In this document: one piece after another, positions 23,324 through 42,603 of the stretch
Layout: each line of letters opens with the position of its first letter
How positions within the stretch are numbered: the stretch's first letter is position 1
Translations under genes and position numbers: made by a program
Source: Clostridia bacterium
Lineage (GTDB): Bacteria > Bacillota > Clostridia > Oscillospirales > QAMX01
DNA: 64,000 nucleotides
Reading direction: 5' to 3'
Assembly: GCA_017532825.1 (NCBI GenBank)
Contig: JAFXIT010000056.1
Location: forward strand, 6,024 to 70,023
The notes under the pieces: model-generated
Told to the model about the DNA's origin: nothing
Seen by the model: the letters and a program-made list of their open reading frames with translations, nothing else
The model's database searches: none

Positions 23324-23324
23324 T

Positions 23325-24260: not shown

Positions 24261-24278
24261 AGAACAAGGAGGGCGACG

Positions 24279-27248: not shown

Positions 27249-27252
27249 TCTG

Positions 27253-28698
27253 ATGAAGCTTAAGGACTTACTTGAGGGTGTTGCCGTTATTGAGATGACG
27301 GCAGACCCCGAAACCGAAATAAATAATATCCTGCGGGACAGCAGACTGGCACACAAGGGCTGTATGTTTGCGGCCCTGCCTGCCCTTACCGGCGGCAGGC
27401 ACGGCATCGACTACGCCCAAAAGGCCGTTCAGGCGGGGGCAGAGTGCCTGCTTTGCGATACCGACTGCCCCGAGGGGCTGCCCTACGTTAGGGTCGAGTC
27501 CGCCGAGAAGGCCTTTGCCATTTGCAGCGCAAACTTCCACGGCAACCCTGCAAAAAGGCTTCGCCTTATAGGTGTCACGGGTACAAACGGCAAGACTACC
27601 GTTACCCACCTTTTAAAGCAGGTACTTGAAAGCAGGGGACACTCCTGCGGCCTTATCGGTACCAACCATATCCTTATCGGCTCTGCCGAGCTTGAAAGCA
27701 AGAATACCACCCCCGAGGCCTTTGAGCTTCACGGCATTTTTGCCAAAATGGTTGAGAGCGGCTGTGAATTCGGAATAATGGAGGTGTCCTCCCACGCACT
27801 TGCAAGCGGAAGGGTAGAGGGCCTTCGCTTTGAGGTTGGAATATTTACCAATCTGACCCAGGACCATCTCGACTTCCACGGCTGCATGGAGGCCTACGCC
27901 GCCGCAAAGCGGAGGCTTGCGGATATGAGCGAGCACTTCGTTATAAACATTGACGACGACTATGCCTCGGTCTTTGAAGAGGCGGCAGGTGAAAAGAAGC
28001 TGACCGTTTCCGCAGCTCGTGACAGGGCGGATATAGTTGCAAAGGAGATACGCTATAACCCCGACTCGGTCGATTTTGTGGCGCTGACTACGGGAAAGCT
28101 CTGCCGTATGCATCTGGGCATTCCGGGAGAATTTTCGGTACATAACGCTCTGAGCGCCATAGGCGGATGTGCGGCACTGGGAATGAGCTTTGAGGAGATC
28201 GCCCCCGGGCTTGCAGGGTCGGAGGGACCCTGCGGACGTGCCGAAATAGTCAAGGTTGACAGACCGTTTTCGGTTATGATAGACTATGCTCATACCCCCG
28301 ATGCGCTTGAAAATATACTCATGGCGGTGCGCCCGGGCGTAAAGGGCAGGATAATAGCGGTATTCGGCTGCGGCGGTGACCGAGACAGGACCAAGCGCCC
28401 CAAAATGGGTGCGGTGGTCGAGCGTCTTGCCGACGTTGCGGTGGTCACCTCCGACAATCCCCGTACAGAGGACCCCGATGCTATAATTGCCGAGATCGTG
28501 GCGGGAATGAAGAAAAAGACCCGTCCGATAGTTATAGAAAACCGCCGTGAGGCGATAGCCAAGGCCCTTTCGATAGCCAGAGAGGACGATCTGGTGATAC
28601 TTTGCGGAAAGGGTCACGAGACCTATCAGGAGATAAACGGCGTAAAATACAGCTTTGACGAACGTGAGGTCGTAAGAGAGCTGCTCAAGGAAGACTGA
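27253..28698 (+). CDS. murE: UDP-MurNAc-L-Ala-D-Glu:meso-diaminopimelate ligase
   Basis: GVTGTNGKTT P-loop, and a DNPR motif indicating meso-DAP specificity. Confidence 0.85.
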   Translation: MKLKDLLEGVAVIEMTADPETEINNILRDSRLAHKGCMFAALPALTGGRHGIDYAQKAVQAGAECLLCDTDCPEGLPYVRVESAEKAFAICSANFHGNPAKRLRLIGVTGTNGKTTVTHLLKQVLESRGHSCGLIGTNHILIGSAELESKNTTPEAFELHGIFAKMVESGCEFGIMEVSSHALASGRVEGLRFEVGIFTNLTQDHLDFHGCMEAYAAAKRRLADMSEHFVINIDDDYASVFEEAAGEKKLTVSAARDRADIVAKEIRYNPDSVDFVALTTGKLCRMHLGIPGEFSVHNALSAIGGCAALGMSFEEIAPGLAGSEGPCGRAEIVKVDRPFSVMIDYAHTPDALENILMAVRPGVKGRIIAVFGCGGDRDRTKRPKMGAVVERLADVAVVTSDNPRTEDPDAIIAEIVAGMKKKTRPIVIENRREAIAKALSIAREDDLVILCGKGHETYQEINGVKYSFDEREVVRELLKED

Positions 28699-28703
28699 TA
28701 TCT

Positions 28704-30068
28704 ATGGAGAAAATGACACTTGCCCGTGTGGCGGCACTTATAGGCTCGGGCGCATATACCGACCATCCCGATACCGTCGTGGAGGGACTCTCGGCGGATT
28801 CGAGAAGCGTAAGCAGAGGAAGCCTTTTTATCCCCCTCGTCGGTGCGAGATTTGACGGACACGACTATATAGATTCTGCCTACGCTTCGGGTGCGGCGGC
28901 GGCCATCACCCATAAAAGCTACTCCGGCGACTGCCCCACGGTAAAGGTCTACGATACCATGAGCGCCCTTACCGCCCTTGCCGCAGGCTACCGTGCAAGC
29001 TTTTCTCCGATAGTTACCGGCATAACCGGAAGCGTCGGCAAGACTACCACCAAGGAGCTTACCGCTGCGGTAATGTCGAGAAAATATACAACCCACAAGA
29101 CCCAGGGCAACAAAAATAACGAGATAGGTCTGCCTCTTACCCTTATGCAGCTTGAAAGCCGCCACGGTGCGGCCGTGATAGAGATGGGTATGTCCGACTT
29201 CGGAGAGATATCCCGCCTTTCAAGGCTTGCCCGTCCCGACATCGCCGTCATTACCAACGTCGGTACCTCCCACATCGAATTTTTGGGCTCACGTGAGGGC
29301 ATAGCAAGGGCCAAAAGCGAGATAGCAGAGGGTATGACCGAGGGCTCGGATATTATAATTCCGTCCGACGAGCCTCTGCTCAAGGGAAGAAAAGAATTCC
29401 AAAAGCTGAAAATACACACGTTCGGACTTGAAAACGCCGATTATACTGCTCAAAACGTCCGCCTTTACGACGACGGAAGTGAGTTTGACATCTGCTTTGA
29501 GGGAGGATCTGTCAAGGCCTGCCTTCGCTATGCGGGAAGGCATAACGTTCTCAATGCACTTGCCGCATTTGCAGCCGGAATATCTGCGGGAGTAGCTCCC
29601 CTTGATGCGGCGCAGGGACTTTACGACAGCGCACCCGAGGGCGTGCGCCAGAGGATATATACCTCGGGCGGATACAGAATATACTCCGACTGCTACAACG
29701 CAAACCCCGAGTCGGTCAAGGTCGCCCTTGACGTGCTTGGCGATTGGAAGGGCAGACGTATTGCGGTGCTCGGCGATATGCTGGAGCTTGGCGACTATTC
29801 CGAAAAGGCCCACAGAGAGGTCGGCGTCTATGCGGCAGGAAAGGCCGATATACTGGTCGTCTGCGGCGGTATGCGTGGCGTGACGGCGTCGGGAGCGGCC
29901 GAGGGGGGTATGTCTGCCGAAAAGATATTTACCACCGACAGCGAAGCTGCGGCGTCGCTTTTAAAGGAGCTCTCCCGTGAGGGCGATATGATCCTTTTCA
30001 AGGGCAGCCGAGGCATGAAGATGGAAAAGATCACGGATGAATTCCTGGGGGAAGCAACAAATGAATGA
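28704..30068 (+). CDS. murF: UDP-MurNAc-tripeptide:D-Ala-D-Ala ligase
   Basis: GITGSVGKTTTKE… Mur ligase fold; 454 aa. Confidence 0.85.
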   Translation: MEKMTLARVAALIGSGAYTDHPDTVVEGLSADSRSVSRGSLFIPLVGARFDGHDYIDSAYASGAAAAITHKSYSGDCPTVKVYDTMSALTALAAGYRASFSPIVTGITGSVGKTTTKELTAAVMSRKYTTHKTQGNKNNEIGLPLTLMQLESRHGAAVIEMGMSDFGEISRLSRLARPDIAVITNVGTSHIEFLGSREGIARAKSEIAEGMTEGSDIIIPSDEPLLKGRKEFQKLKIHTFGLENADYTAQNVRLYDDGSEFDICFEGGSVKACLRYAGRHNVLNALAAFAAGISAGVAPLDAAQGLYDSAPEGVRQRIYTSGGYRIYSDCYNANPESVKVALDVLGDWKGRRIAVLGDMLELGDYSEKAHREVGVYAAGKADILVVCGGMRGVTASGAAEGGMSAEKIFTTDSEAAASLLKELSREGDMILFKGSRGMKMEKITDEFLGEATNE

Positions 30069-31053
30069 TTATATAGTTATAGCCATCACGGCGGCAGTAT
30101 CCTTTGTTTTTGCGGTAATACTCGGAAAGATAATCATACCCAAGCTCGTTGAGCTTAAGATGGGTCAAAGCATAAAGGAGATAGGCCCAAACTGGCATCT
30201 CCACAAGCAGGGTACCCCCGTAATGGGCGGATTGATATTTATCTTTTCGCTGATAATTGCCTGCGCCGTGGCAATGGCGATAGTCGGCTTTGAGGGCATA
30301 AAGGAGCTCGGTATCGTCTTGTTTCCTGCGGTGGCGTTCGGTGCGGTAGGCTTCCTTGACGATTACGAAAAGATAGCAAAAAAACAAAATCTCGGCCTGA
30401 ACATGATCCAAAAGTTGGTGCTTCAGTTTGCCGTCACGGCCGTGTTTCTTACCCTGCTTCGCATAAGCGGATATTCGATATCCAGCGTATATATCCCGTT
30501 TTTTGATCTGACGGTCTCCGTCAGCCCCTGGATATACTGTCCTCTTGCGGCACTGTTTATCGCACTTATCAACAACGCCGCAAACCTTACCGACGGTGTC
30601 GACGGCCTTGCAAGCGGCGTCACCCTCCCCATAGCGGCGTTTCTGTCTGTGACCGCTCTTCTTACAGGTCACATCGGGACCTCCGTCATAACCGCTGCGA
30701 TCTTCGGCGGCCTTGTCGGCTTCCTTGTATACAACTATAACCCTGCCAAGGTCTTTATGGGCGACACCGGCTCGCTCTTTATCGGAGGACTTATCGCAGG
30801 TGCGGCGTTTGCCGCCGAATGTCCGCTGATACTGATAGTTTGCGGATTTGTCTACCTCGCCGAGGCCGCCTCGGTGGTACTGCAGGTAGGATACTTTAAG
30901 CTCAGCCACGGCAAGCGCATATTCAAGATGGCTCCCATACACCACCACTTTGAGATGTGCGGCTGGAAGGAAAAGAAGGTTTTTTGGATATTTACACTTG
31001 TATCGACTGCATTTTGTGCGTTGAGCGTTGCGGGAGTGTATAAACTTTTTTAA
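30061..31053 (+). CDS. mraY: phospho-N-acetylmuramoyl-pentapeptide transferase
   Basis: Polytopic membrane protein with MraY motifs (…NLTDGLDGLA…). Start taken at ATG 30061 (MNDYIV), overlapping the murF end. Confidence 0.85.
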   Translation: MNDYIVIAITAAVSFVFAVILGKIIIPKLVELKMGQSIKEIGPNWHLHKQGTPVMGGLIFIFSLIIACAVAMAIVGFEGIKELGIVLFPAVAFGAVGFLDDYEKIAKKQNLGLNMIQKLVLQFAVTAVFLTLLRISGYSISSVYIPFFDLTVSVSPWIYCPLAALFIALINNAANLTDGVDGLASGVTLPIAAFLSVTALLTGHIGTSVITAAIFGGLVGFLVYNYNPAKVFMGDTGSLFIGGLIAGAAFAAECPLILIVCGFVYLAEAASVVLQVGYFKLSHGKRIFKMAPIHHHFEMCGWKEKKVFWIFTLVSTAFCALSVAGVYKLF

Positions 31054-31062
31054 GGAGCTTCA

Positions 31063-32418
31063 ATGGACGGTAGAAAGCGTGCCAAGGCGCACAAGGAATA
31101 CGAAAGCATCCGTCCGCAGCAGAATACGCTGCGACTGAATACCCAACCAATGCCCGGGCCGTCGAAAAACGACGCCCGGCATCGCCGCGCCTTGAACAGG
31201 GAGTATGAAAAGGTCGTTACCTCGGAGCCTGCGGGGGAGAGCAGGGTAGACAGAATGCTCGCCTCGGAGGGTCCCTCGCCCAAGCTCAGAGCGAGATTTT
31301 TCCCGATGGACGCAGTGTTTTTTACCGTGGTCATTGCACTTCTCTGCTTTGGACTTGTTATGATGTACTCGGCAGGCTCTGCCTGGTCGCAGTATTATTA
31401 CGGCACCGATACCTACTATCTCAGACGTCAGGCGGTGTTTGCCGTTATAGGCGTTGCGCTGATGATAGTGCTGGCGCACTTCGATTATACGAGACTTAAA
31501 AAGTGGTACCTTCTCCTCGGAATATGGGGGGCTACGGTTGCAATGCTCGGTGCGGTACTCCTTTTCGGACGTACCGCAAACGGCGCACAGCGCTGGCTTG
31601 AGATACCCGGGATCGGCAGTATACAGCCCTCGGAGGTAGCAAAGTTTACCGTAGTGCTGATGCTTGCCTGGTTTGCAGACCGTGCGGGCGGTAGGCTCAA
31701 GCGCTTCAGAAGCTTTGGCTGGAGCGTGCTTCCGCCGCTTCTGGCACTGGGAACGATAGTCCCCCTTGTTATGCTTGAGCGACACCTTTCGGCAACGGTA
31801 ATAATCGTCGTTACCGCATTCGTGGTGATCTTCAACTCCGAGATACACTGGGGATATCTCGTCGGCGCTCTCGGTCTTGGCGGTGCGGGGGTGGCCTTTG
31901 CAATAAAGCTAAAGCTCTTTGCGGAGTATGCCACGGCGAGAATTCCCGTCTGGAAGGACCCATTTATAGATCCGCTCGGCCTCGGCTACCAGACAATACA
32001 GTCCCTTTACGCCATATCGGCGGGGGGCATATTCGGCCTGGGGCTCGGAAACTCAAGACAAAAGCAGCTATACCTACCCGAAGCTCACAACGACTACGTC
32101 TTTGCCATAGTCTGTGAGGAGCTTGGGATGGTCGGTGCGATCTTCGTGATAGCACTTTTTGCACTGCTCATAATACGCGGCTTCTGGATCGCAATGCACT
32201 CCAGAGACCGATTCGGCGCACTTTTGGTCATCGGTATTACCACCCACGTCGCCCTTCAGGCTCTGCTCAACATCGCAGTCGTGACCAATGCGATCCCGGT
32301 CACGGGCGTGTCACTTCCGTTTTTCAGCTACGGCGGAAGCTCGCTTGTAATGCTGCTTGCGGAGATGGGTGTGGTGCTGAGCGTATCAAAACAGATGCAT
32401 GTTGAAAGGAATGGTTAG
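31063..32418 (+). CDS. ftsW: SEDS-family peptidoglycan glycosyltransferase (FtsW/SpoVE/RodA)
   Basis: 10-transmembrane SEDS pattern (…GSSLVMLL…). The real start may be internal, at MLASEG or MDAVFF, after a basic N-terminal extension. Confidence 0.75.
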   Translation: MDGRKRAKAHKEYESIRPQQNTLRLNTQPMPGPSKNDARHRRALNREYEKVVTSEPAGESRVDRMLASEGPSPKLRARFFPMDAVFFTVVIALLCFGLVMMYSAGSAWSQYYYGTDTYYLRRQAVFAVIGVALMIVLAHFDYTRLKKWYLLLGIWGATVAMLGAVLLFGRTANGAQRWLEIPGIGSIQPSEVAKFTVVLMLAWFADRAGGRLKRFRSFGWSVLPPLLALGTIVPLVMLERHLSATVIIVVTAFVVIFNSEIHWGYLVGALGLGGAGVAFAIKLKLFAEYATARIPVWKDPFIDPLGLGYQTIQSLYAISAGGIFGLGLGNSRQKQLYLPEAHNDYVFAIVCEELGMVGAIFVIALFALLIIRGFWIAMHSRDRFGALLVIGITTHVALQALLNIAVVTNAIPVTGVSLPFFSYGGSSLVMLLAEMGVVLSVSKQMHVERNG

Positions 32419-33534
32419 ATGAGACTGCTTTTGGCAGGTGGCGGAACGGCGGGACATATAAATCCGGCCATAGCCATGGCAAGATACGTCAGAAGTCGAC
32501 GCCCGTCGTCGGATATACTGTTTATAGGCGCCAAGGGCGGTATGGAGGAAAAGCTTGTCGTAGAGGCGGGCTTTGCCCTTGAGACCTTCCCCATGAGAGG
32601 CTTTAAGCACAGCCTCAGCCCCAAGGCCTGCGTCTACAACCTCGCTACGGCGGGGAAGATGCGCTCCGCTGTCAAACAGGCAGGGGAGATAATCGACCGC
32701 TTCAACCCCGACGTCATACTCGGAACGGGCGGATTTGCCTGCTTTCCGCCGCTCTATGCAGGCGCAAAGAAGGGTATACCCACCGCCATACACGAGTCAA
32801 ACGCCCTCCCGGGCAGGTCAAACCGTCTCCTTTCTCGCTACGTTGACAGAGTAATGATCGGCTTTGAGGATGCCGCAAGGTACTTCCCCAAAAAGAAGAC
32901 CCAGTTTACAGGAAATCCCCTCAGAGAGGGTATGGTCTATTCGAAAAAGTCGGAAGCAAAAAAGCTTCTCGGAATAGATACCCCCCTAGTCTATTCCTTC
33001 TGGGGATCGCTCGGTGCAAGCGAAATGAACCGTATTACCGCCGAGCTTTTCAAGCTTGAAATGGAAAATTCTGCAGAATTTACCCACATACATTCGGCAG
33101 GCACACTCGGACACAAAAAAATGCCCGAGCATCTTGCCAACCTTGGCATTGACATCAACGGCTACAAAAAAATTGACCTAAGGGAATACGTCTACGATGC
33201 GCCTACGGTAATGGCCGCCGCTGACGTTATACTCTGCCGTGCGGGGGCAATGACGGTAAGCGAGCTTGCCGCAACAGGAACCCCGTCGGTAATAATACCG
33301 TCCCCCAACGTGTCGGGACATCATCAGCACAACAACGCCCACGCCATCGCCGACCGAGGGGGTGCGGTGTTCCTTGAGGAGTCCGACTGCAGTGCACAGA
33401 GACTCTACGATGAGATAAACGGACTCCTTTCCGACCCCGAAAGGATGGAAAGGATGTCTGCGGCGGCAAGCACGATCGCAGTCTACGATGCGGGAGAAAA
33501 AATATATAAAAGCCTTCTTGAGCTTATAGGTTAA
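32419..33534 (+). CDS. murG: UDP-GlcNAc:undecaprenyl-PP-MurNAc-pentapeptide GlcNAc transferase
   Basis: GGTAGHINPAIA N-terminal motif; 371 aa. Confidence 0.85.
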   Translation: MRLLLAGGGTAGHINPAIAMARYVRSRRPSSDILFIGAKGGMEEKLVVEAGFALETFPMRGFKHSLSPKACVYNLATAGKMRSAVKQAGEIIDRFNPDVILGTGGFACFPPLYAGAKKGIPTAIHESNALPGRSNRLLSRYVDRVMIGFEDAARYFPKKKTQFTGNPLREGMVYSKKSEAKKLLGIDTPLVYSFWGSLGASEMNRITAELFKLEMENSAEFTHIHSAGTLGHKKMPEHLANLGIDINGYKKIDLREYVYDAPTVMAAADVILCRAGAMTVSELAATGTPSVIIPSPNVSGHHQHNNAHAIADRGGAVFLEESDCSAQRLYDEINGLLSDPERMERMSAAASTIAVYDAGEKIYKSLLELIG

Positions 33535-33582
33535 CACAAAGCCCGCCGTCTTCATATTATGCAGTATCAGCAGATATGAAGG

Positions 33583-34851
33583 ATGTGTATGATTGTGTCA
33601 AGGATCGTCATAGAGGGACAGAGACGTCTTTGCGGAGAATTGGAGCTGCAGGGCTCGAAAAACGGAGTGCTTCCGATACTTGCGGCCTGCGTGATAAACC
33701 GGGGTGTCAGCGTAATAGAAAACTGTCCCGAGCTTTCAGACGTTGAAAATACCCTTTTGATACTGCAAAGCCTTGGCTGTACCGTCAGCAGGGAGGGCCA
33801 TCGGGTCACGGTCGATGCCTCGACGCTTAACGGCTCTGCGGTATGCGGCGAGATGACGGGGTGTATGCGCTCCTCCATCGGCTTTCTCGGGGCATTGCTT
33901 GCCCGTACGGGAAGTGCAGAGGTGGGATACCCGGGCGGATGCGCCCTGGGGGCAAGACCTATTGACATACATATAGACCTTTTGAGACGGCTCGGAGCCA
34001 GGGTGGAATGCGGCGGAAGCGTAAAGGCCGTCTGTACCGACCCCAAAGGCTCACGCATAAGGCTCAAGGGCTTGAGCGTGGGTGCGACTGAGAATGCCAT
34101 GCTCTTTGCCTGCGGATGCAGGGGTATCACACGAATAGAGAACGCCGCCGCCGAGCCGGAGATAGTCGAGCTTGCGGAGTTTCTAAACGCTATGGGACAC
34201 CGTGTCAAGGGTGCGGGCGGCAGATGTATAGAGATAACGCCTGCAAGCACCTGCAGGGGGACGGTGGTACATCGGGTACATCCCGACAGAATCGCCGCCG
34301 CAACCTATATCTGTGCGGTAATGTCAGCGGGGGGAGACGTCCTTCTTTGCGGTGCAAGGGGCTGCAGTATGGCAAACGTAGTGCGTACTGCGGCGAACAT
34401 GGGCTGTGAATTCAGATACGACCGCAGAGGTCTGCGTGTCAGTGCAAACGGACGTCCGACCTCCCCCGGACGCATAATCACAAGACCCCACCCGGGCTTT
34501 CCAACCGATGCCCAGCCGATGTTTACGGCGGTGTGCTCGGTGGCATCGGGACAGACCCTTATCGAGGATACCGTGTTCTCCGACCGCTTCAGACAGTGCG
34601 GAGAGCTCATAAAAATGGGTGCGGATATAACCGTGGAATCGGGCAGAGTACGGGTCAAGGGCGTCAGAGAACTGCAGGGAGCCGAGGTAAAGGCGTACGA
34701 CCTGCGGGGCGGTGCGGCAATGGCTGTCGCCGCAGTAGGCGCAAGGGGACGTACGGTAATATCGGGTACAGAATATATCGACAGAGGATATCAGCGCATT
34801 GAGCAGAGCTTGGCGGCTCTGGGTGCGGATGTGGAGAGAACAGATGGATGA
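33583..34851 (+). CDS. murA: UDP-N-acetylglucosamine 1-carboxyvinyltransferase
   Basis: …LQGSKNGVLPILAA…, EPT fold, 422 aa. Confidence 0.85.
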   Translation: MCMIVSRIVIEGQRRLCGELELQGSKNGVLPILAACVINRGVSVIENCPELSDVENTLLILQSLGCTVSREGHRVTVDASTLNGSAVCGEMTGCMRSSIGFLGALLARTGSAEVGYPGGCALGARPIDIHIDLLRRLGARVECGGSVKAVCTDPKGSRIRLKGLSVGATENAMLFACGCRGITRIENAAAEPEIVELAEFLNAMGHRVKGAGGRCIEITPASTCRGTVVHRVHPDRIAAATYICAVMSAGGDVLLCGARGCSMANVVRTAANMGCEFRYDRRGLRVSANGRPTSPGRIITRPHPGFPTDAQPMFTAVCSVASGQTLIEDTVFSDRFRQCGELIKMGADITVESGRVRVKGVRELQGAEVKAYDLRGGAAMAVAAVGARGRTVISGTEYIDRGYQRIEQSLAALGADVERTDG

Positions 34852-35698
34852 CAGGCAAAAAAATAAAATAGCCCCGTCCCGCAAGGAACGCAAAGATCGC
34901 AAAAAGCTTGTCCTCCGTGAACAGAAGGCACAAAGGAAGGCCCAGGCAAAGAGGGATCGGGAGAGCGTAAGGGAACAGAAGCGCTCCTATCGCAGAAGGA
35001 AGAATTCGATGATATATCTCTCCTTTGCGATGGCCTTTACCGTGGCGGCGGCAATATTTACCGTCAGCGTGTTTTTTACCGTGGATACCGTAGAGGTCCA
35101 CGGAAACACACGCTACACTCAGGATGAGATTATTTCCGCATCGGGTATAAAGCAGGGGGATAACCTCCTGCTGATGGACAAGTTCTCGGTCACCGACAGA
35201 ATGCTTGAAAAGCTTATATGGCTTGAGAAGATAGAGATCAGAAGGATATTTCCCGACCGCATCCGTATAACCGTCAGCGAGTGCAGTCCGAGATTTGCCG
35301 TTGAATACGATGACGGATTCTGGATATGCGATGGCTCGGGGCGGTTGCTTGAGTATACGCCCGACCCCGCAGCCGCACCGACGGTAATATACGGTGCGGA
35401 GCTTGTAAAGCCCGAGCTTGGAAAGGTCTACGTAGCCTCGGACGGTCCGTCAGCTCCGCTTTCGGAGATACTTGATGAGCTTGAGGCCTGCGGCCTGCTC
35501 GAGCGTGTCAACAAAATATCCGTTGTAAAGATTTACGACACCGTTTTCGAGCTTGATGGCTTCCGTGTGAGCATGGGGCGCTCGGGCGATTTTGGGGACA
35601 AGCTCAGGCTGGTTACGATGGTAATAGCCGACCTTGAGGCAAAGGGTAGGTTCGATGCACATATAGACGTATCCTCGGGTGAGGCCGTGGTAAACTGA
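34844..35698 (+). CDS. ftsQ: cell division protein FtsQ/DivIB
   Basis: Basic cytoplasmic tail, one transmembrane helix, POTRA plus beta domains. ATG 34844 overlaps the murA stop. Confidence 0.7.
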   Translation: MDDRQKNKIAPSRKERKDRKKLVLREQKAQRKAQAKRDRESVREQKRSYRRRKNSMIYLSFAMAFTVAAAIFTVSVFFTVDTVEVHGNTRYTQDEIISASGIKQGDNLLLMDKFSVTDRMLEKLIWLEKIEIRRIFPDRIRITVSECSPRFAVEYDDGFWICDGSGRLLEYTPDPAAAPTVIYGAELVKPELGKVYVASDGPSAPLSEILDELEACGLLERVNKISVVKIYDTVFELDGFRVSMGRSGDFGDKLRLVTMVIADLEAKGRFDAHIDVSSGEAVVN

Positions 35699-35836
35699 GA
35701 GTAAAAATTTTCCTAAAAAATATTGTGAAAAAAATATAGATATATATTGTATTTTGGCGAAAAATGTTATACAATATATATCAGCGAAAGGTAAACGCCT
35801 TTACAGCTCAAAAAAGTCATTTCAGGAGGAAAGCAT

Positions 35837-36973
35837 ATGCCTTTACAGATCGAACAGAACGTTGACAACGTCGTGAATATTAAGGTTATCGGTATAGGCG
35901 GCGGCGGTAACAACGCCATAAACCGCATGGTCGAGAGCAACCTGCAGGGAGTGGAGTTCATCTCCGTCAACACCGACAAGCAGCAGCTTCTCAGCGCAGC
36001 GGGAATCCCTCTTCAGGTGGGCGAGCGCATCACCAAGGGCCAGGGCTGCGGTGCTAACCCCGACAAGGGCAAGAAGGCGTTGGAGGAAAACCGTGAGGAC
36101 ATTCAGGGTCTGCTCCAGAACACCGACATGGTATTTATAACTGCAGGTATGGGCGGCGGTACCGGTACCGGCGGCGCCCCCGTGGTCGCCGAGATCGCCC
36201 GTGACATGGGCATTCTGACCGTTGGCGTAGTGACCAAGCCCTTCAAGTTTGAAGGCTCCAAGAGAATGAAGCAGGCCGAAGAGGGCATTGCCGCTCTCCG
36301 TGAAAAGGTCGACTCCCTGGTCGTCATCCCCAACGAGAGACTCAAGTACGTAACCGAGCAGAAGATAACCTTCCTCAACGCATTTAACTATGCCGACGAC
36401 GTTCTCCGTCAGGCTGTCCAGAGCATTTCCGACCTTATAAAGATGCCCGGTCTTGTCAACCTTGACTTTGCCGACGTCTGTGCGGTAATGCGTGACGCAG
36501 GCTATGCACATATGGGCGTAGGCCGTGCCTCCGGCAAGGAAAAGGCACTCGAGGCAGCAAAGCTTGCCATCCAGAGCCCGCTGCTTGAGACCTCCATCAA
36601 CGGCGCCCGTGGCGTACTTATCAACATCATCGGTTCGGTCGATATCGGTCTGGAAGAGATCGAGACCGCCGCATCCATCGTCGAAGAGTCGGCGCATCCC
36701 GATGCCAACATAATCTTCGGTGCCGCCATCGACGAAAGCCTTGACGACGAGATCAAGGTCACCATCATCGCTACCGGCTTTGATACCGAGGGTCCCAACC
36801 CCATCAAGGCCCCCACCACCTCGGCAGTAGTTGCCGAAATGGTCACCGGTGAAGCCGAGAACGCCGACGGCAACCTTGACGTTTATCCCCAGGGCATAAG
36901 CGGCGAAAAGGAAGTAAAAAAGTCTGAGGACGATCCCTACGGCGACATAATGGCTATTTTCAATAAGAGATAA
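35837..36973 (+). CDS. ftsZ: cell division GTPase FtsZ (copy 1)
   Basis: GIGGGGNNAINRM, the tubulin signature TAGMGGGTGTGGAPVVA, and a C-terminal peptide DDPYGDIMAIFNKR. RBS AGGAGG. Confidence 0.9.
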   Translation: MPLQIEQNVDNVVNIKVIGIGGGGNNAINRMVESNLQGVEFISVNTDKQQLLSAAGIPLQVGERITKGQGCGANPDKGKKALEENREDIQGLLQNTDMVFITAGMGGGTGTGGAPVVAEIARDMGILTVGVVTKPFKFEGSKRMKQAEEGIAALREKVDSLVVIPNERLKYVTEQKITFLNAFNYADDVLRQAVQSISDLIKMPGLVNLDFADVCAVMRDAGYAHMGVGRASGKEKALEAAKLAIQSPLLETSINGARGVLINIIGSVDIGLEEIETAASIVEESAHPDANIIFGAAIDESLDDEIKVTIIATGFDTEGPNPIKAPTTSAVVAEMVTGEAENADGNLDVYPQGISGEKEVKKSEDDPYGDIMAIFNKR

Positions 36974-36986
36974 CGGAAGCTTTCGA

Positions 36987-37015
36987 AGGGCTGTCCTTAA
37001 AAGGGACAGCCTTTT
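36987..37015 (+). terminator. hairpin or terminator between the two ftsZ genes
   Basis: gggctgtccc-ttaaaa-gggacagcc followed by TTTT. Confidence 0.5.
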
Positions 37016-37040
37016 GAGACTGTCTTGGGAGGAAAGTAAA

Positions 37041-38159
37041 ATGGCGATAAGGTTTGGCGGAAGCGAAGAAAGCGTATCCCGCATAAAGGTAATAGGAATA
37101 GGCGGCGGCGGAAACAATACCGTCGACAGAATGATAAGCGCAGGACTTACCGGTGCTGAATTCATCGCTATAAATACCGACCTTCAACAGCTTGAGCGCT
37201 CTCTTGCCCCCGTAAAGCTCCAGACGGGCGAAAAGGTCGCCTGCGGTAAGGGCTGCGGCGCTATGCCGGAAAAGGGGAGGAAGGCCGCAGAGGAGAGCCG
37301 TGCCGAGATCAAGGCGCTCATATCCGATGCAGACCTGCTCTTTATAACTGCAGGTATGGGCGGCGGTACGGGTACGGGCGGAGCCCCCGTTGTCGCCGAG
37401 ATCGCCAAGGAGCTTGGTATTCTGACCGTCGGCGTAGTTACCCGCCCCTTCAAGTTTGAGGGCGCACGCCGCCGTATACAGGCCGAAAAGGGTATCGCCG
37501 AGCTTCACGGTGTGGTCGACTCCCTGCTTGTAATTCCCAATGAGAGACTGAAATACGTTACCGACCAAAAGATAACACTCGTCAATGCTTTTAACCTGGC
37601 AGACGACGTCCTGCGCCAGGCTATACGCAGTATCTACGAGCTTATAACCGTCAACGGGCTTATCAACCTCGACTTTGCCGATATCGAGACCGTCGTGTCC
37701 GACGGCGGCTTTGCCCATATGGGCGTAGGCCGTGCGGCGGGTGTCGGAAAGGCCCTTTCTGCCGCAAAGATGGCGGTCCAGAGTCCGCTGCTTGAGACCT
37801 CCATCAACGGCGCACGCGGTATAATAATCAACATCACCGGCGGCAAGGATATGGAGCTTGCCGAGGTCGAGGAAGCCGCAGGCTTCGTTCAGGACAACGT
37901 CGGCGAGGATGCCACCATCCTCTTCGGTGCGGCTATAGACCCCTCTCTCAAGGATGAAATGCGTATCACCATCATTGCTACGGGCTTTGAAAGCGACGAT
38001 GCAAACCCCATGGAGGCCGAGCCGCAACCCGTCGAAGCGACCGATGCGCTGCCCTTCTTTTCAAAGAAGAAGTCCGAGGATACCGAAGCCTCCGAGCCCT
38101 CTGCCAATGCTGACGATTGGTTTGACTCCGACCTTTTAAGGCAGATCTTCGGAAAGTAA
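37041..38159 (+). CDS. FtsZ paralogue (copy 2)
   Basis: Complete FtsZ GTPase and C-terminal domains at roughly 60-65% identity to copy 1 by eye. It has an intact GGGTGTG signature and its own C-terminal tail (DDWFDSDLLRQIFGK). RBS GGGAGG. Confidence 0.85.
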   Translation: MAIRFGGSEESVSRIKVIGIGGGGNNTVDRMISAGLTGAEFIAINTDLQQLERSLAPVKLQTGEKVACGKGCGAMPEKGRKAAEESRAEIKALISDADLLFITAGMGGGTGTGGAPVVAEIAKELGILTVGVVTRPFKFEGARRRIQAEKGIAELHGVVDSLLVIPNERLKYVTDQKITLVNAFNLADDVLRQAIRSIYELITVNGLINLDFADIETVVSDGGFAHMGVGRAAGVGKALSAAKMAVQSPLLETSINGARGIIINITGGKDMELAEVEEAAGFVQDNVGEDATILFGAAIDPSLKDEMRITIIATGFESDDANPMEAEPQPVEATDALPFFSKKKSEDTEASEPSANADDWFDSDLLRQIFGK

Positions 38160-38182
38160 TAGCGGAAAATGATCTAAAACTG

Positions 38183-38212
38183 CCCTGCGGTAGCCCCGCA
38201 GGGCTTTTTCAT
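38183..38212 (+). terminator. terminator after the ftsZ pair
   Basis: ccctgcgg-tagcc-ccgcaggg followed by CTTTTTC. Confidence 0.6.
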
Positions 38213-38217
38213 GCCCT

Positions 38218-38246
38218 TGACAGCGAATTGTACGGTTGATATAATG
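38218..38246 (+). promoter_or_regulatory. sigma-A promoter of the response-regulator gene
   Basis: TTGACA, 17-nt spacer, TATAAT (38241-38246). Confidence 0.55.
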
Positions 38247-38271: not shown

Positions 38272-38928
38272 ATGAAAAAGATACTTATCATAGACGACGA
38301 CGTCCATATAGGAAATATGCTCCAAGAGGTCTTGGAGAGGGAAGGCTACGACGTTATGCGTGCCTATTCGGGAACGGAGGCTCTGCTGCTGCTTTCCTCC
38401 GTACGCCCCGACCTCTGCCTGCTTGATCTAATGCTCCCGGGCCTTTCGGGTGAGCAGGTACTGCCGCAGCTTGACGGTGTGCCGACTATCGTCGTCAGTG
38501 CGAAGGTGGATATAGACAACAAGGTCTCCATGCTACTTGCAGGTGCGGCAGATTACGTGACAAAACCCTTTGATACAAAGGAACTTTTGGCCCGTATTGC
38601 GGTCGCCTTGAGGGGGAAAGCGGCGACTCCGACGGTACTTTCTTTTGATCTTATAACCCTCGATACGGTAGTCCGGACCGTCACCGTGGGAGAGTGCGAA
38701 ATAAAGCTCACTCCGACGGAGTTTGCCCTGCTCAAACATCTTATGCAAAACCCCGAACAGGTGCTATCCAAATCGCAGCTTCTTGACCGCATAGCCCTTG
38801 ATACACCCGACTGCACCGAAAGCTCATTAAAAATGCACGTCAGCAACCTTCGCAGAAAGCTCCGTGAGATATCCGGCAGGGACTATATAGAAGCGGTATG
38901 GGGGATAGGCTTTAAGCTCAAAAAATAA
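38272..38928 (+). CDS. OmpR-family response regulator
   Basis: Receiver domain (DDD…K), a winged-helix C-terminus, 218 aa. Confidence 0.85.
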   Translation: MKKILIIDDDVHIGNMLQEVLEREGYDVMRAYSGTEALLLLSSVRPDLCLLDLMLPGLSGEQVLPQLDGVPTIVVSAKVDIDNKVSMLLAGAADYVTKPFDTKELLARIAVALRGKAATPTVLSFDLITLDTVVRTVTVGECEIKLTPTEFALLKHLMQNPEQVLSKSQLLDRIALDTPDCTESSLKMHVSNLRRKLREISGRDYIEAVWGIGFKLKK

Positions 38929-38972
38929 ATCTTTACCAAATCTTTACCCTCTTCTTTACCGCAAACTTTACG
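38929..38972 (+). promoter_or_regulatory. four direct repeats (A/T)TCTTTAC(C) at 11-12 bp spacing; putative response-regulator binding site
   Basis: CTTTAC at 38931, 38942, 38954 and 38966, between the regulator stop and the ABC-transporter RBS. Confidence 0.5.
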
Positions 38973-39018
38973 CCTTTGAGGTAGAATTACAGCGAAGAAA
39001 ACAAAAGGAGGTTTTCGT

Positions 39019-39933
39019 ATGGAAAATGTGCTGGTGACCTCTGCGCTGTGTAAACGCTACGGCAGGGCATACGCCCTCAAGGACGTAACGATGAGCGTTC
39101 CCAAAGGGGCTATCTACGGGTTCGTCGGCCGCAACGGTGCGGGCAAGACCACCCTTATCCGTGTCGTTTGCGGACTTCAGAAGCCAAGCGGCGGGACTTA
39201 TTCCCTCTACGGTGTTGAAAACGATGACAGGACGATAGCGTCATCCAGGAGAAGGATGGGTGCGGTAGTCGAAACACCGTCGCTCTACCTCAATATGTCT
39301 GCCGAAGACAACCTCAAACAGCAGGCACTTATGCTCGGTCTGCCATCTTATGACGCTATTCCGGGACTGCTTGATCTGGTGGGGCTTGGCCACGTCGGAA
39401 GAAAAAAGGTCAAGAATTTTTCTCTCGGTATGAAACAGCGTCTGGGGATCGCCGTTGCGCTGACGGGCAACCCCGACTTTGTACTGCTCGACGAACCGAC
39501 AAACGGCCTTGACCCGCAGGGCATCGTCGAGATACGTGAGCTGATACTCAGACTGAATCGTGTGCAGGGGATAACCTTTCTCATCTCCAGCCACATCCTC
39601 TCCGAGCTTTCACGTCTTGCAACGCACTACGGATTTATAGACAAGGGTCGGCTGGTAAAGGAGATAAGTGCCGCAGAACTTGAGTCCGCCTGCAGAAAAT
39701 GTCTGAGGGTGGAGGTGAACGATACGAAGGCTCTCGTCCGTGTGCTGGACAAAATGGGAAGGCAATACGAGATCCTTTCGGACACCTCAGCAGATATCTA
39801 CGGCGAGATCGGGCTTTCGGAACTTGTGCTGGCGTTGGACAAGGAGGGAGGAGAGCTCCTTTCGGCGAAGGAGCAGGATGAAAACTTAGAGGCCTACTTT
39901 ATCAATCTGATAGGGGGCAACACCGATGAGTAA
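39019..39933 (+). CDS. ABC transporter ATP-binding protein (ABC-2 type)
   Basis: Walker A GRNGAGKTT, the LSGGMKQR-type signature, Walker B LLDEPT. Confidence 0.85.
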   Translation: MENVLVTSALCKRYGRAYALKDVTMSVPKGAIYGFVGRNGAGKTTLIRVVCGLQKPSGGTYSLYGVENDDRTIASSRRRMGAVVETPSLYLNMSAEDNLKQQALMLGLPSYDAIPGLLDLVGLGHVGRKKVKNFSLGMKQRLGIAVALTGNPDFVLLDEPTNGLDPQGIVEIRELILRLNRVQGITFLISSHILSELSRLATHYGFIDKGRLVKEISAAELESACRKCLRVEVNDTKALVRVLDKMGRQYEILSDTSADIYGEIGLSELVLALDKEGGELLSAKEQDENLEAYFINLIGGNTDE

Positions 39934-40816
39934 ACTGCTAAAAGCGACGTTTTTCAGGTATACCCACAGCATGGTGTTTGGTATCTGCCTTCTGCTGACG
40001 GCTGTTTTCGCAGGACTGTTTTCCCGTTGGATACACTACGCCTCGGAGTTGAGCGCACGGTGGTTTCTCGCAGAGATCATAGTCTTTGCGACGGTTATAT
40101 GCCTCACGGTCGGAACCGAAACGGCAGGCTGTGTGAAAAATAAGCTCGTCTGCGGTTTTTCAAGAACGAAGATATTTTTTTCCGAACTGATAGTTGCGAA
40201 CGTAGTAGTACTGTTCTTTTTTGCGATCTTCGCTGCTTTCTCCTTCGTGGTCAATATCAGGTTGCTTGGGAACACGCCTCTGAAAATGATCCTCCAATGC
40301 CTGCTTGGTTTTGGGTGTATGGCCGTTATGCTTGCGACGGCGTTTGTCACCGTCTCTTGTATTTTTTCAAGACCCGCTGCGGCCGCGGCGGGATGTATGA
40401 TAACCGTCGTCGTCCTTTTTGCCTCCACCGCCTTGGTGCTGGATCTGCTTGCCGAGCCCGAATTTTTTAAGGGACGGTACAGAGTCGATGGCGGAGAATG
40501 GCAGGATTATATCGAGGAAAACGAAAGGTATGTTGACAGTCCTCTCCGTGAGGTACTGATATTTTATAAAAACGCAAATCCCTTCGGGGTGCTTTCCGAT
40601 TACGAGGATGTGATGGTGCCCTGGCTCTATGAGGATGAAGCGCTCGCCTCTGCAATGGACGCCACTGCGAACACCATCGGAAACGATTTCCTGCGTCGGG
40701 AGATATCTCCCGACGAGCAACGTTTTTTAGACCGTGCGCCGATCAGAATGGTCGCACCCGTCCCCGTGCTCATACTCGCAGGATGGCTGATCTTCAGAAG
40801 AAAGACGTTTTCGTAG
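39926..40816 (+). CDS. ABC-2 family permease
   Basis: Multi-transmembrane protein coupled to the ATPase gene. Confidence 0.6.
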   Translation: MSKLLKATFFRYTHSMVFGICLLLTAVFAGLFSRWIHYASELSARWFLAEIIVFATVICLTVGTETAGCVKNKLVCGFSRTKIFFSELIVANVVVLFFFAIFAAFSFVVNIRLLGNTPLKMILQCLLGFGCMAVMLATAFVTVSCIFSRPAAAAAGCMITVVVLFASTALVLDLLAEPEFFKGRYRVDGGEWQDYIEENERYVDSPLREVLIFYKNANPFGVLSDYEDVMVPWLYEDEALASAMDATANTIGNDFLRREISPDEQRFLDRAPIRMVAPVPVLILAGWLIFRRKTFS

Positions 40817-40827
40817 GGGTGGCAAAT

Positions 40828-41703
40828 ATGACAAAGCTTATAAGAGCGGGTGTGCACAGATACCTCAAAAGCAGAACCTTCCGCATAGCCTTACTGCTTT
40901 CGTTTGGGCTGGGTCTGCTTGGCGGGGCACGTACCTCGGAAACGTTTACCTTTGATGAGTTTTTTATAACGATCGGCTTTTTGCTGATTGCTGTTACCGT
41001 GTCGTTTGCGGTAGGACAGGAATACGGCGAGGGGCAGTTTAGAAACAAGCTCGTAGCGGGCCACGGAAGGGGAGAGATATTTTTCTCCGAGCTGATGCTC
41101 TCTCTTGGAGGAACGGCTGTGATGTTCCTGCTGATGGCTGCGGGATTTTCGGTGTTTAATTACGAACTGTTTGGTGCGGTCGGGTACGATATTATGATGT
41201 CGGTATTTGTCGGAAGCCTGCTTGGTTGCCTTGCGGCGGCAGGGGTATATCTGGCGGTAAGCTGCCTTATTCCCAACAGAGCCGTCGCCGTCGTACTGAA
41301 CGCAGTACTGCTTATCGTTGCCGTGAACGCCTACTCACGCATCGCCGTAGCACTGAATCAGTCGGAGTTTTACTATATCGTATCCTCCGATCAGATGCCG
41401 CAGGAGGGTGAAGAGATGCCTCTGCCGAGCAGACCCGAAGGCGAGCGCGTTGACAACCCTTTTTACGTCGGCGGGGTGAAACGACAGGTCTTTAATTTCG
41501 TCCAAAAGGCATCTCCTTTCGGGATCGAAAGGCAGTATACCGACATCGTGAAGAAATACCTTTTGGCCACGGACGGATTGCCTTTGGATGATGAGGATAA
41601 GGACCGCAGTGAGATACTTCCGCTTCCGCTCTACCCGCTTGGAGTACTCGTCGCCGTGACGGCAGTCGGATACCTGGCCTTTCGAAGAAAGGAATTCAAA
41701 TAA
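40828..41703 (+). CDS. ABC-2 family permease (second)
   Basis: Paralogous multi-transmembrane protein. Confidence 0.6.
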   Translation: MTKLIRAGVHRYLKSRTFRIALLLSFGLGLLGGARTSETFTFDEFFITIGFLLIAVTVSFAVGQEYGEGQFRNKLVAGHGRGEIFFSELMLSLGGTAVMFLLMAAGFSVFNYELFGAVGYDIMMSVFVGSLLGCLAAAGVYLAVSCLIPNRAVAVVLNAVLLIVAVNAYSRIAVALNQSEFYYIVSSDQMPQEGEEMPLPSRPEGERVDNPFYVGGVKRQVFNFVQKASPFGIERQYTDIVKKYLLATDGLPLDDEDKDRSEILPLPLYPLGVLVAVTAVGYLAFRRKEFK

Positions 41704-41718
41704 AAGGAGGTCGGAAGG

Positions 41719-42603
41719 ATGGCCCTGCTTTGGCTCGTCTGCGGAGGATTGCTCGTGCTGGTGATCGCTCTTGCGGTGAAGATCTGTATTATGCGAAAGA
41801 GTATGGACGAGATATGCCGTTGCGTTTGCGATCATCTTCCCACCGATACGAATCGCCTTATCTCCGTCTCGTCGGGGGACAGATACGTCAGACGTCTTGC
41901 CTCGGAGCTGTCTGTGCGACTGTCAGAGCTTCGCAGACAGCGGCGGCGGTATATAAACGGCGACCGTGAGCTTAAGGAGGCCGTGACCAATATATCCCAC
42001 GATCTCCGCACACCGCTGACTGCCGTCAGGGGATATCTCGACCTGCTTGAACGGGAGGAAACCTCGCCCGCCGTCAGACGGTATCTTTCGCTCATATCAG
42101 ACCGTACCGAGGCTCTGCGCAGGCTTACCGAGGAGCTTTTCCGATACTCGGTGATATCATCGGAGACGGAACTGGTTTTTCAGGACGTCGACCTGCGGAG
42201 TATGCTTGAAGAGAGCCTGCTGTCCTTCTATGCGGCGTTCGGGGAAAAGAACATCTATCCGAAGATATCCCTTCCGTCGGTTTCCGTCGTTCGCAGACTT
42301 GACTCTTCGGCCTTTTCCCGAATACTTTCAAACATTATCGGCAACGCCGTGAAATACAGCGACGGCGATTTCAAGGTCAGCCTGAGTGAGGGCGGGGAGA
42401 TACTGTTTGAAAACACGGCCTCCGACCTGTCAAACGTCGACGTGGGAAAGCTTTTCGACAGATTCTATACCGTCGATTCCGCCAGGCGGTCGACAGGACT
42501 CGGCCTCTCCATCGCAAAGCTGTTGACCGAGCGCATGGGCGGCAGTATATCGGCCGACTTTGCCGACAAAAAGCTTCGGATAACGGTGATATTTGAACAG
42601 TAA
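41719..42603 (+). CDS. sensor histidine kinase (intramembrane-sensing type)
   Basis: One N-terminal transmembrane helix, HisKA (SHDLRTPLTAV), HATPase_c. Confidence 0.8.
   Translation: MALLWLVCGGLLVLVIALAVKICIMRKSMDEICRCVCDHLPTDTNRLISVSSGDRYVRRLASELSVRLSELRRQRRRYINGDRELKEAVTNISHDLRTPLTAVRGYLDLLEREETSPAVRRYLSLISDRTEALRRLTEELFRYSVISSETELVFQDVDLRSMLEESLLSFYAAFGEKNIYPKISLPSVSVVRRLDSSAFSRILSNIIGNAVKYSDGDFKVSLSEGGEILFENTASDLSNVDVGKLFDRFYTVDSARRSTGLGLSIAKLLTERMGGSISADFADKKLRITVIFEQ

What the first reader, a model, noticed from the sequence alone, without database searches (positions are those of the whole stretch)
35837..38159. Two complete ftsZ paralogues in tandem at the end of the dcw cluster
**What is there.** Directly after ftsQ there are two full-length FtsZ genes (378 and 372 aa). 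Both have an intact GGGTGTG tubulin signature, a T7 loop region and a C-terminal tail. They are clearly diverged from each other, at roughly 60-65% identity by eye with different linkers and C-terminal peptides, so this is not an assembly duplicate.

**Transcription.** A hairpin-terminator lies between them (36987-37015) and each has its own strong RBS.

**Context.** ftsA is absent from this dcw cluster. A second, differently tailed FtsZ could form a heteropolymer, or serve a distinct septum such as the sporulation or asymmetric one. Either would be a notable variation of the core divisome.
Basis: seen in the sequence. Interest (0 to 1): 0.65.

Follow-up and report, generated by a model that had tools for sequence, protein, structure and literature searches.

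The report
Conserved tandem pair of FtsZ genes
An uncultured group of gut Oscillospiraceae bacteria has kept two complete, working-looking copies of the cell-division protein FtsZ side by side for a long time, each with its own conserved tail, so this is a real but still uncharacterised bacterial two-FtsZ system.

Summary
Two full-length ftsZ genes follow ftsQ: Z1 at 35837-36973 (378 aa) and Z2 at 37041-38159 (372 aa). They are 63% identical. Both exceed the FtsZ equivalog cutoff and keep the GTP-binding and T7 catalytic residues.

This is not an assembly artefact. The same pair occurs in four independent assemblies. The Z1-Z2 tandem also occurs in 10 of 79 species-representative genomes and in further contigs, all from uncultured Oscillospiraceae.

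Z1 and Z2 form separate clades with matching internal branching, and they share rare derived residues. This points to one old duplication within the lineage. Both copies are under purifying selection (dN/dS 0.007-0.05 for Z1, 0.06-0.09 for Z2).

Z1 keeps the ancestral state. Z2 evolves faster and has different conserved tail motifs.

The intergenic hairpin exists only here and in one relative; elsewhere the gap is 34-53 bp, so the pair is one operon. ftsA is also absent beside the single ftsZ of relatives, so its absence is not special.

My best reading is a co-expressed two-FtsZ ring with divergent partner binding. That function is inferred, not shown. I found no published description.

The parts
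34799..35698 (+). ftsQ/divIB, the last dcw gene before the FtsZ pair. Independent gene calls start it near 34844.
   Evidence: POTRA_1 domain, E 8e-16. Gene calls in L080 and L081.
35747..35775 (+). Candidate sigma-A promoter of the Z1-Z2 operon: TTGTAT, 17 nt, TACAAT. It sits inside the inverted repeat ATATTGTA...TACAATAT.
   Evidence: Read from the sequence. TTGTA-N17-TACAAT is present upstream of Z1 in 11 of 11 tandem loci and in 0 of 67 single-copy relatives. The strict consensus scan did not call it. Function is inferred.
35825..35829 (+). Ribosome-binding site of Z1 (GGAGG).
35837..36973 (+). ftsZ copy 1 (Z1, 378 aa). This is the ancestral-like copy. Tail motifs are NLDVYPQ and DDPYGDIMAIFNKR.
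36985..37015 (+). GC-rich hairpin followed by TTTT, between Z1 and Z2. Probably a weak or partial intrinsic terminator (attenuator). It is specific to this lineage.
   Evidence: -28.4 kcal/mol. The consensus scan did not call it. A similar hairpin occurs only in L001.
37027..37033 (+). Ribosome-binding site of Z2 (GGGAGGA). GCGGGAGGA is conserved in the other tandem loci.
37041..38159 (+). ftsZ copy 2 (Z2, 372 aa). This is the derived, faster-evolving copy. Tail motifs are ALPFF and DDWFDSDLLRQIFGK.
38182..38209 (+). Intrinsic terminator that closes the Z1-Z2 operon (9-bp stem with 8 GC pairs, then TTTTT).
38217..38245 (+). Perfect consensus promoter (TTGACA, 17 nt, TG-TATAAT) of the unrelated response-regulator/ABC/kinase operon. 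It marks the boundary of the feature.

Best explanation
A single tandem duplication of ftsZ occurred in the ancestor of an uncultured Oscillospiraceae lineage. Both copies have since been kept as a two-gene operon at the end of the dcw cluster.

Z1 is the conservative copy. It has the ancestral residues and an almost invariant C-terminal peptide, DIMAIFNK[KR]. This resembles the EIFSIFKR peptide of single-copy relatives. Z1 is most likely the principal ring-forming FtsZ.

Z2 keeps every GTP-binding and T7 catalytic residue, so it should polymerise and hydrolyse GTP. It evolves faster and has its own conserved tail motifs: ELPF in the linker, [DE]Y[ED]R[IL]Lx[MI]L at the end, and a less basic terminus.

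The most likely mechanism is as follows. Both proteins are made from one transcript and enter the same Z ring, as mixed filaments or side by side. Their different tails bind different partners, or bind the same partner with different affinity. Membrane anchors or regulators such as SepF are candidates. This would split functions that one FtsZ tail normally combines.

In the window's species, the hairpin between the genes probably lowers Z2 relative to Z1.

**Shown:** existence, intactness, age, single origin, purifying selection, operon layout and paralogue-specific tails.

**Inferred:** co-assembly, partner specificity and attenuation.
For: **Genes and family membership.**

**Catalytic motifs.** Intact in both copies. 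Only 12 sites are fixed differently between them, and all are conservative changes.

**Independent occurrence.**
- Four independent assemblies carry the same pair.
- The tandem is found in 10 of 79 species-representative genomes.
- It also appears in two further contigs and in three metagenome contigs, at least one of which (L090) is the same 7774-bp contig as L008.
- Every Z2-type gene whose upstream flank was available follows a Z1-type gene.

**Phylogeny.**
- In the 41-sequence tree the Z1 and Z2 clades are each recovered in 200 of 200 bootstraps, with congruent internal topology.
- In the 230-sequence tree support is 86% for Z1 and 99% for Z2.
- The sister relation is supported by four-point tests, 294 of 300 and 289 of 300.
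- It is also supported by rare shared residues: A70C in the T3 loop, S245Q and V310I.

**Selection.** For close pairs dN/dS is 0.007-0.05 for Z1 and 0.06-0.09 for Z2.

**Asymmetry.** Z1 matches relatives at 8 sites where Z2 differs. The reverse case occurs at 0 sites.

**Operon.** Gaps are 34-53 bp with a conserved RBS and no hairpin in 9 of 11 loci. A conserved promoter lies upstream of Z1 only. A terminator follows Z2.

**Tails.** Paralogue-specific motifs.
Against: - There is no experimental or expression data, so co-polymerisation and partner binding are inference only.
- NJ bootstrap for Z1+Z2 monophyly in the large tree is only 21%. No ML phylogeny could be run.
- The Z2 tail keeps the same hydrophobic spacing as the ancestral peptide, so it might bind the same partner. 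The divergence could then be of little consequence.
- The window's Z2 tail (DDWFDSDLLRQIFGK) is an outlier within the Z2 family.
- Whole-genome content (sepF, ftsA elsewhere, min and sporulation genes) could not be examined.
Confidence: 0.6

Rival explanations
1. Z2 is a specialised FtsZ that builds a separate structure, such as a sporulation, polar or asymmetric septum, rather than joining the vegetative ring with Z1.
For: - The tail motifs are distinct and conserved.
- In the window and in L001 a hairpin separates the genes, which could allow different expression levels.
Against: - In 9 of 11 species the genes are 34-53 bp apart with no promoter or hairpin.
- In the window there is no room for a usable promoter between the hairpin and the RBS. 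The only promoter-like match would start transcription inside the ORF. Z2 cannot therefore be switched on independently at the level of transcription initiation.
- I recognised no sporulation genes in the window or next to the pair.
Confidence: 0.15
2. The pair is a retained dosage or back-up duplicate with no real division of labour. The tail differences are neutral drift around one shared binding function.
For: - The cores are almost unchanged, with 12 conservative fixed differences.
- The Z2 terminal motif keeps the ancestral hydrophobic pattern.
- The two genes are co-transcribed.
Against: - Redundant duplicates are normally lost. This pair is retained in every clade member examined, across divergence where synonymous sites are saturated.
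- Each paralogue's tail motifs are conserved within the paralogue yet differ between paralogues.
- Evolution is asymmetric, 8 sites against 0.
Confidence: 0.2
3. One copy is an assembly artefact, a strain chimera or a decaying pseudogene.
For: All the sequences come from metagenome assemblies.
Against: - The identical arrangement occurs in four independent assemblies and in at least 12 other genomes or contigs.
- The copies are 63% identical, with dS near saturation.
- The ORFs are intact, with dN/dS below 0.1.
Confidence: 0.01

Closest known systems
Canonical bacterial FtsZ (TIGR00065), e.g. Staphylococcus aureus and Bacillus subtilis FtsZ structures (4m8i, 3vo8, 2vam)
   Same: Both copies have the full architecture: GTPase domain, FtsZ_C domain, disordered linker and C-terminal peptide. 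All nucleotide-binding and T7 residues are present, and the genes lie in the dcw cluster after ftsQ.
   Different: There are two copies in tandem instead of one. The T3 loop has Cys where nearly all FtsZ have Ala. The tails carry two conserved motifs, and no ftsA is adjacent.
Archaeal FtsZ1/FtsZ2 (Haloferax volcanii; Liao et al. 2021, bioRxiv 10.1101/2020.06.04.133736) and plastid FtsZ1/FtsZ2 (PMC8142252, PMC12343686)
   Same: Two full-length, catalytically competent FtsZ paralogues are kept together. In those systems they share one ring with different roles: assembly versus constriction, or stability versus dynamics.
   Different: The origin is independent and much younger. Z2 here nests with Z1 inside Oscillospiraceae FtsZ. 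The genes are adjacent and co-transcribed, and both keep a C-terminal peptide. Plant FtsZ1 lacks the conserved C-terminal peptide, which I state from my own knowledge.
Alphaproteobacterial extra FtsZ copies (Sinorhizobium FtsZ2, Agrobacterium FtsZ1/FtsZ3, Hyphomicrobiales paralogues; bioRxiv 10.1101/2025.09.29.679267)
   Same: These are lineage-specific bacterial ftsZ duplications that have been retained for long periods.
   Different: According to that preprint those paralogues are often truncated. According to PMC9871819, extra copies in the few bacteria with two ftsZ lie outside the dcw cluster. Here both copies are full length and adjacent inside the cluster.

Membership tests
FtsZ (TIGR00065 equivalog; Pfam Tubulin + FtsZ_C) | Whole-protein score above the curated equivalog cutoff. 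| tested here: met
   Z1 scores 397.6 bits and Z2 scores 398.2 bits, against a cutoff of 295.2.
FtsZ (TIGR00065 equivalog; Pfam Tubulin + FtsZ_C) | N-terminal tubulin/FtsZ GTPase domain plus the FtsZ C-terminal domain. | tested here: met
   PF00091 at E 8e-46 (Z1) and 1e-44 (Z2). PF12327 at E 1e-34 (Z1) and 2.5e-33 (Z2). The best solved relative is FtsZ 4m8i, E 6e-105.
FtsZ (TIGR00065 equivalog; Pfam Tubulin + FtsZ_C) | Nucleotide-binding motifs (T1 GGGGNN, T4 GGGTGTG) and the T7 catalytic loop NxDFAD. | tested here: met
   All are present in both copies, and in all Z1 and Z2 orthologues, by alignment to E. coli FtsZ.
FtsZ (TIGR00065 equivalog; Pfam Tubulin + FtsZ_C) | Disordered linker ending in a conserved C-terminal peptide that binds anchors or regulators. 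| tested here: met
   Tails are 49-94 aa with conserved terminal motifs in each paralogue. Binding itself was not tested.
FtsZ (TIGR00065 equivalog; Pfam Tubulin + FtsZ_C) | GTP-dependent polymerisation and Z-ring formation. | not testable with these tools
   Needs biochemistry or imaging.
Archaeal or plastid FtsZ2 (orthology) | Groups phylogenetically with archaeal FtsZ2 or with cyanobacterial/plastid FtsZ2. | tested here: not met
   Z2's nearest relatives are Z1 and Oscillospiraceae FtsZ. This holds in the 230-sequence tree and in the quartet tests.
Truncated FtsZ paralogues of Alphaproteobacteria (FtsZ2/FtsZm type) | Loss of the linker and/or the C-terminal peptide. | tested here: not met
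   Z2 is 372 aa with a linker and a conserved terminal motif.
Divergent FtsZ-like/TubZ/CetZ proteins | Low similarity to FtsZ proper, a different C-terminal domain, and a location outside dcw. | tested here: not met
   Z2 is above the FtsZ equivalog cutoff, has the FtsZ_C domain, and lies in the dcw cluster.

The most novel reading that the evidence does not exclude
This Oscillospiraceae lineage runs a true two-FtsZ divisome that arose independently of the archaeal and plastid ones. Z1 and Z2 co-polymerise, and their different tail motifs recruit different membrane anchors or regulators. One candidate partner is the small DUF4870-like membrane protein encoded directly after Z2 in six related genomes. 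If so, the lineage would be a natural experiment in splitting the roles of the FtsZ tail.
Probability: 0.25. Interest if true: 0.7.

Novelty: new variant of a known kind. Interest (0 to 1): 0.5.

Why it matters
Bacteria are generally described as having one FtsZ. A survey of 937 Firmicutes proteomes treats FtsZ as a single-gene family (PMC8136486). A broad FtsZ/tubulin survey notes that the few bacteria with two copies keep the extra one outside the dcw cluster (PMC9871819).

The pair described here is full length, co-transcribed and retained over a long period, and each copy has its own conserved tail. It would be an independent bacterial counterpart of the archaeal and plastid two-FtsZ systems.

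It could show which FtsZ functions can be separated: filament dynamics versus tethering, or binding of one partner versus another. The two proteins differ at only about a dozen fixed core positions plus the tails, which makes them easy to compare.

The limits are clear. The organisms are uncultured and nothing functional is known. At present this is a well-supported comparative-genomics observation, not a mechanism.

Tried and rejected
- **Assembly artefact or pseudogene.** Rejected.
- **Conserved terminator between the genes.** Rejected. It occurs only in the window and L001, and the consensus scan does not call it.
- **Own promoter for Z2.** The only promoter-like match (37014-37042) ends inside the start codon, so it cannot serve the ORF.
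- **ftsA absence as a correlate of the duplication.** Rejected. tblastn with E. coli FtsA finds nothing in the window or in any of 83 loci, single-copy relatives included.
- **Sporulation link through spoIIGA-sigE downstream of ftsZ.** Downstream genes vary, and in the ORF listings for the tandem loci and six single-copy relatives I saw nothing resembling spoIIGA or sigE. These ORFs were not scanned against Pfam.
- **Ancient paralogue or distant horizontal transfer of Z2.** Not supported.
- **Rfam and tRNA scans of the window.** Nothing found.
- **Hydrophobic-moment comparison of the terminal peptides.** Not discriminating.
- **First bootstrap run with Biopython distances.** It timed out and was replaced by a numpy implementation.
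- **Literature searches for tandem or second ftsZ in Clostridia or Oscillospiraceae.** No description found.
- **Structure prediction.** Not run. The sequence evidence for the fold is overwhelming, and the tool cannot model heteromers.
Full report
**1. What is in the window**

The + strand carries a dcw cluster, with each gene assigned by Pfam:

| Gene | Start |
|---|---|
| mraZ | 22904 |
| rsmH | 23325 |
| class B PBP with PASTA domains | 24987 |
| murE | 27253 |
| murF | 28704 |
| mraY | 30037 |
| ftsW | 31063 |
| murG | 32419 |
| murA-type enzyme | 33583 |
| ftsQ | 34799-35698 |

- Two ORFs follow: 35837-36973 (378 aa, Z1) and 37014/37041-38159 (Z2).
- The Z2 start is the ATG at 37041, giving 372 aa. 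GGGAGGA lies 7 nt upstream, orthologues begin the same way, and independent gene callers give 372 aa.
- The two proteins are 63% identical over 326 aa (E 1e-127). Their tails do not align.
- Both carry the Tubulin and FtsZ_C domains.
- Both score about 398 bits on the NCBIfam ftsZ equivalog, against a cutoff of 295.
- Z2 matches solved FtsZ structures at E 6e-105.
- Aligned to E. coli FtsZ, both keep T1 GGGGNN, the NTD of T2, T4 GGGTGTG, the IPN asparagine and T7 NLDFAD.

**2. Is it real?**

- The exact Z2 protein is encoded in four independent assemblies: two ENA metagenome assemblies and two Logan assemblies of separate runs. Z1 lies directly upstream in each.
- A scan of one genome per species (GTDB representatives) returned 79 loci. 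Ten of them, L001-L009 and L011, carry the same ftsQ-Z1-Z2 tandem. All ten are uncultured Oscillospiraceae, Clostridiales or Bacillota MAGs. The other 69 (Faecousia, Pseudoflavonifractor and others) have a single ftsZ within 6 kb.
- Two further Z2-type proteins from the 5.8-billion-protein collection also sit behind a Z1-type gene.
- In a metagenome scan only the top Z2-like loci (L089-L091) were tandem.
- Z2-type proteins are rare. About 17 clusters at 90% identity were found, all annotated only as FtsZ.

An assembly artefact is excluded.

**3. Origin**

- In an NJ tree of 41 sequences (343 columns), the Z1 copies, the Z2 copies and the single-copy relatives form three groups, each recovered in 200 of 200 bootstraps.
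- The branching inside the Z1 and Z2 clades is largely the same: L007+L008 together as the earliest-branching pair; L002, L006, L003, L011 and L004 together; L005 with L009. The placements of the window and L001 differ between the two clades. This pattern is what one duplication before the divergence of these species would give, with no later gene conversion.
- I then added 145 diverse representatives of 50%-identity clusters, further close hits and E. coli FtsZ, for 230 sequences in all. The smallest clade containing Z1 and Z2 then holds only Z1- and Z2-type sequences, and it nests within the Oscillospiraceae-like FtsZ.
- Bootstrap support in that tree is 99% for Z2 and 86% for Z1, but only 21% for Z1+Z2 together.
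- Four-point tests on group-mean distances favour Z1+Z2 as sisters in 294 of 300 and 289 of 300 resamplings. They do so in 75-79% of individual quartets.
- Three rare shared residues support the sister relation. E. coli A70 is Cys in the T3 loop, in 0% of near relatives and 3% of distant ones. S245 is Gln. V310 is Ile.
- The nearest outgroup examined (P0105, GCA_017444965.1) has one ftsZ.

Z2 is therefore a lineage-specific duplicate. It is not an orthologue of the archaeal or plastid FtsZ2 and not a distant transfer.

**4. Are both copies functional?**

- For closely related species pairs where dS is not saturated, dN/dS is 0.007-0.05 for Z1 and 0.06-0.09 for Z2. Examples are L002/L003 at 0.020 against 0.086, and L002/L006 at 0.007 against 0.059.
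- Both copies are under strong purifying selection, and Z2 is somewhat less constrained.
- Mean pairwise core identity is 84% among Z1 and 78% among Z2.
- Z1 shares the state of single-copy relatives at 8 fixed sites where Z2 differs. The reverse never occurs.
- Only 12 core sites are fixed differently between the paralogues, and all are conservative changes. Several lie in helix H7 and at the start of T7 (E. coli 190, 193, 197, 198, 206). No catalytic or nucleotide-binding residue is affected.

**5. The tails**

*Z1.* It ends in DD[PA]Y[GR]DIMAIFNK[KR], essentially invariant in 16 sequences. This aligns with the D-I-D-E-I-F-S-I-F-K-R ending of single-copy relatives.

*Z2.* It ends in [DE]Y[ED]R[IL]L[EK][MI]L followed by a less basic terminus. 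Mean net charge of the last four residues is +0.7, against +2.0 for Z1. The window's version, DDWFDSDLLRQIFGK, is an outlier of this pattern.

*A second motif.* It lies in the linker: [ND]L[DE][VL][YF]P in all Z1, and [DE]ELPF in 11-12 of 14 Z2.

Motifs that are conserved within a paralogue but differ between paralogues are the main argument for divergent partner binding. That is inference.

**6. Transcription**

- Upstream of Z1 all 11 tandem loci share TTGTA(T/A), 17 nt, TACAAT, embedded in the inverted repeat ATATTGTA...TACAATAT. In the window this is 35747-35775. None of 67 single-copy relatives has it.
- In 9 of 11 species the Z1-Z2 gap is 34-53 bp and holds only a strong RBS (GCGGGAGGA). 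There is no stable hairpin.
- The window has a 67-bp gap with a strong hairpin at 36985-37015 followed by only TTTT. L001 has a 148-bp gap with a comparable hairpin.
- The consensus scan does not score the window hairpin as a terminator. Its only promoter-like hit in the gap ends inside the Z2 start codon.
- A clear terminator at 38182-38204 plus TTTTT follows Z2. After it comes a perfect promoter for an unrelated two-component/ABC operon.

The pair is therefore one operon. In this species the hairpin most likely acts as a partial terminator that lowers Z2 relative to Z1. It is not an ancestral feature of the system.

**7. ftsA**

No FtsA homologue is detectable with E. coli FtsA in the 64 kb window or in any of the 83 loci held at that point, including the 69 single-copy loci. 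The absence of ftsA next to ftsZ is a trait of this whole group of Oscillospiraceae. It does not correlate with the duplication. Whether ftsA or sepF lies elsewhere in these genomes could not be examined.

**8. Comparison with what is known**

- Both proteins are members of the FtsZ family by every sequence criterion I could test.
- The arrangement resembles the archaeal FtsZ1/FtsZ2 and plastid FtsZ1/FtsZ2 systems in having two competent paralogues. It arose separately and recently within one bacterial lineage.
- It differs from the alphaproteobacterial extra copies, which are often truncated (bioRxiv 10.1101/2025.09.29.679267).
- It also differs from the few bacteria noted to have a second ftsZ outside the dcw cluster (PMC9871819).
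- A Firmicutes-wide survey of cell-division genes lists FtsZ as a monogenic family (PMC8136486).
- Five full-text searches found no description of tandem ftsZ in Clostridia or Oscillospiraceae. The searchable library is limited to open-access papers and preprints.

**9. Verdict**

This is a conserved, selected, co-transcribed pair of full-length FtsZ paralogues confined to a small uncultured Oscillospiraceae lineage.

The functional reading is plausible but unproven. It holds that the two proteins share one ring and that their tails have divided partner binding between them. A sporulation-specific role is less likely given the operon structure.

I rate it as a new variant of a known kind, of moderate interest.

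Noticed in passing
window 35740-35779; upstream of Z1 in L001-L009 and L011: The candidate ftsZ promoter lies inside a conserved inverted repeat, ATATTGTA-N-TACAATAT. TTGTA-N17-TACAAT is present in 11 of 11 tandem loci and 0 of 67 single-copy relatives. The relatives use TTGACC-type promoters instead. The palindrome could also be a regulator binding site.
   Followed up: partly
L001 2670-3050, L003 7172-7663, L004 7135-7518, L005 7254-7754, L009 7611-7976, L011 about 7238-7621: A small membrane protein of about 125-165 aa is encoded directly after Z2 in 6 of 10 related tandem loci. It has an FHANQ motif and a weak, sub-threshold DUF4870 match. It is absent from the window and from all single-copy loci. 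It might be a partner of Z2 or simply local synteny.
   Followed up: partly
Z1 residue 71 and Z2 residue 72 (GCGA; E. coli A70), window about 36047-36049 and 37254-37256: Both paralogues have Cys in the T3 loop, where nearly all FtsZ have Ala. Cys is found in 0% of near relatives and 3% of 145 diverse representatives. I do not know its consequence for GTP sensing or redox sensitivity.
   Followed up: no
proteins P0121, P0123, P0127, P0145 (representative library): These are single predicted proteins of 730-840 aa that contain two complete FtsZ domains. By composition they look eukaryotic/plastid-like and archaeal-like. They may be real fusions or merged gene calls of other tandem FtsZ pairs.
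   Followed up: no
window 22904-35698: This dcw cluster has no murD, murC or ftsA. It carries a murA-type (EPSP_synthase fold) gene between murG and ftsQ. The same murG-murA-ftsQ order appears in relatives.
   Followed up: partly
window 15904-18222 (+): A 772-aa protein combines an HTH_3 domain, a cupin domain and a full AMP-binding (adenylate-forming) enzyme. This is an unusual fusion of a regulator and an enzyme.
   Followed up: no
window 38272-42603 (+): Immediately after the ftsZ operon lies a resistance-type module behind a perfect consensus promoter. It comprises an OmpR-family response regulator, an ABC ATPase related to lantibiotic-protection transporters, two unannotated membrane proteins and a VanS-like histidine kinase.
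   Followed up: no
window 23-1573 and 1698-2846 (+): Two adjacent BspA-type leucine-rich-repeat proteins. The first is cut by the window edge.
   Followed up: no
window 35843-37165 (-): A 440-aa open frame runs antisense across the whole of Z1 and into the start of Z2. A similar 355-aa frame (36960-38027) lies antisense to Z2. Neither has support as a gene, and both are most likely by-products of the codon composition of ftsZ.
   Followed up: no
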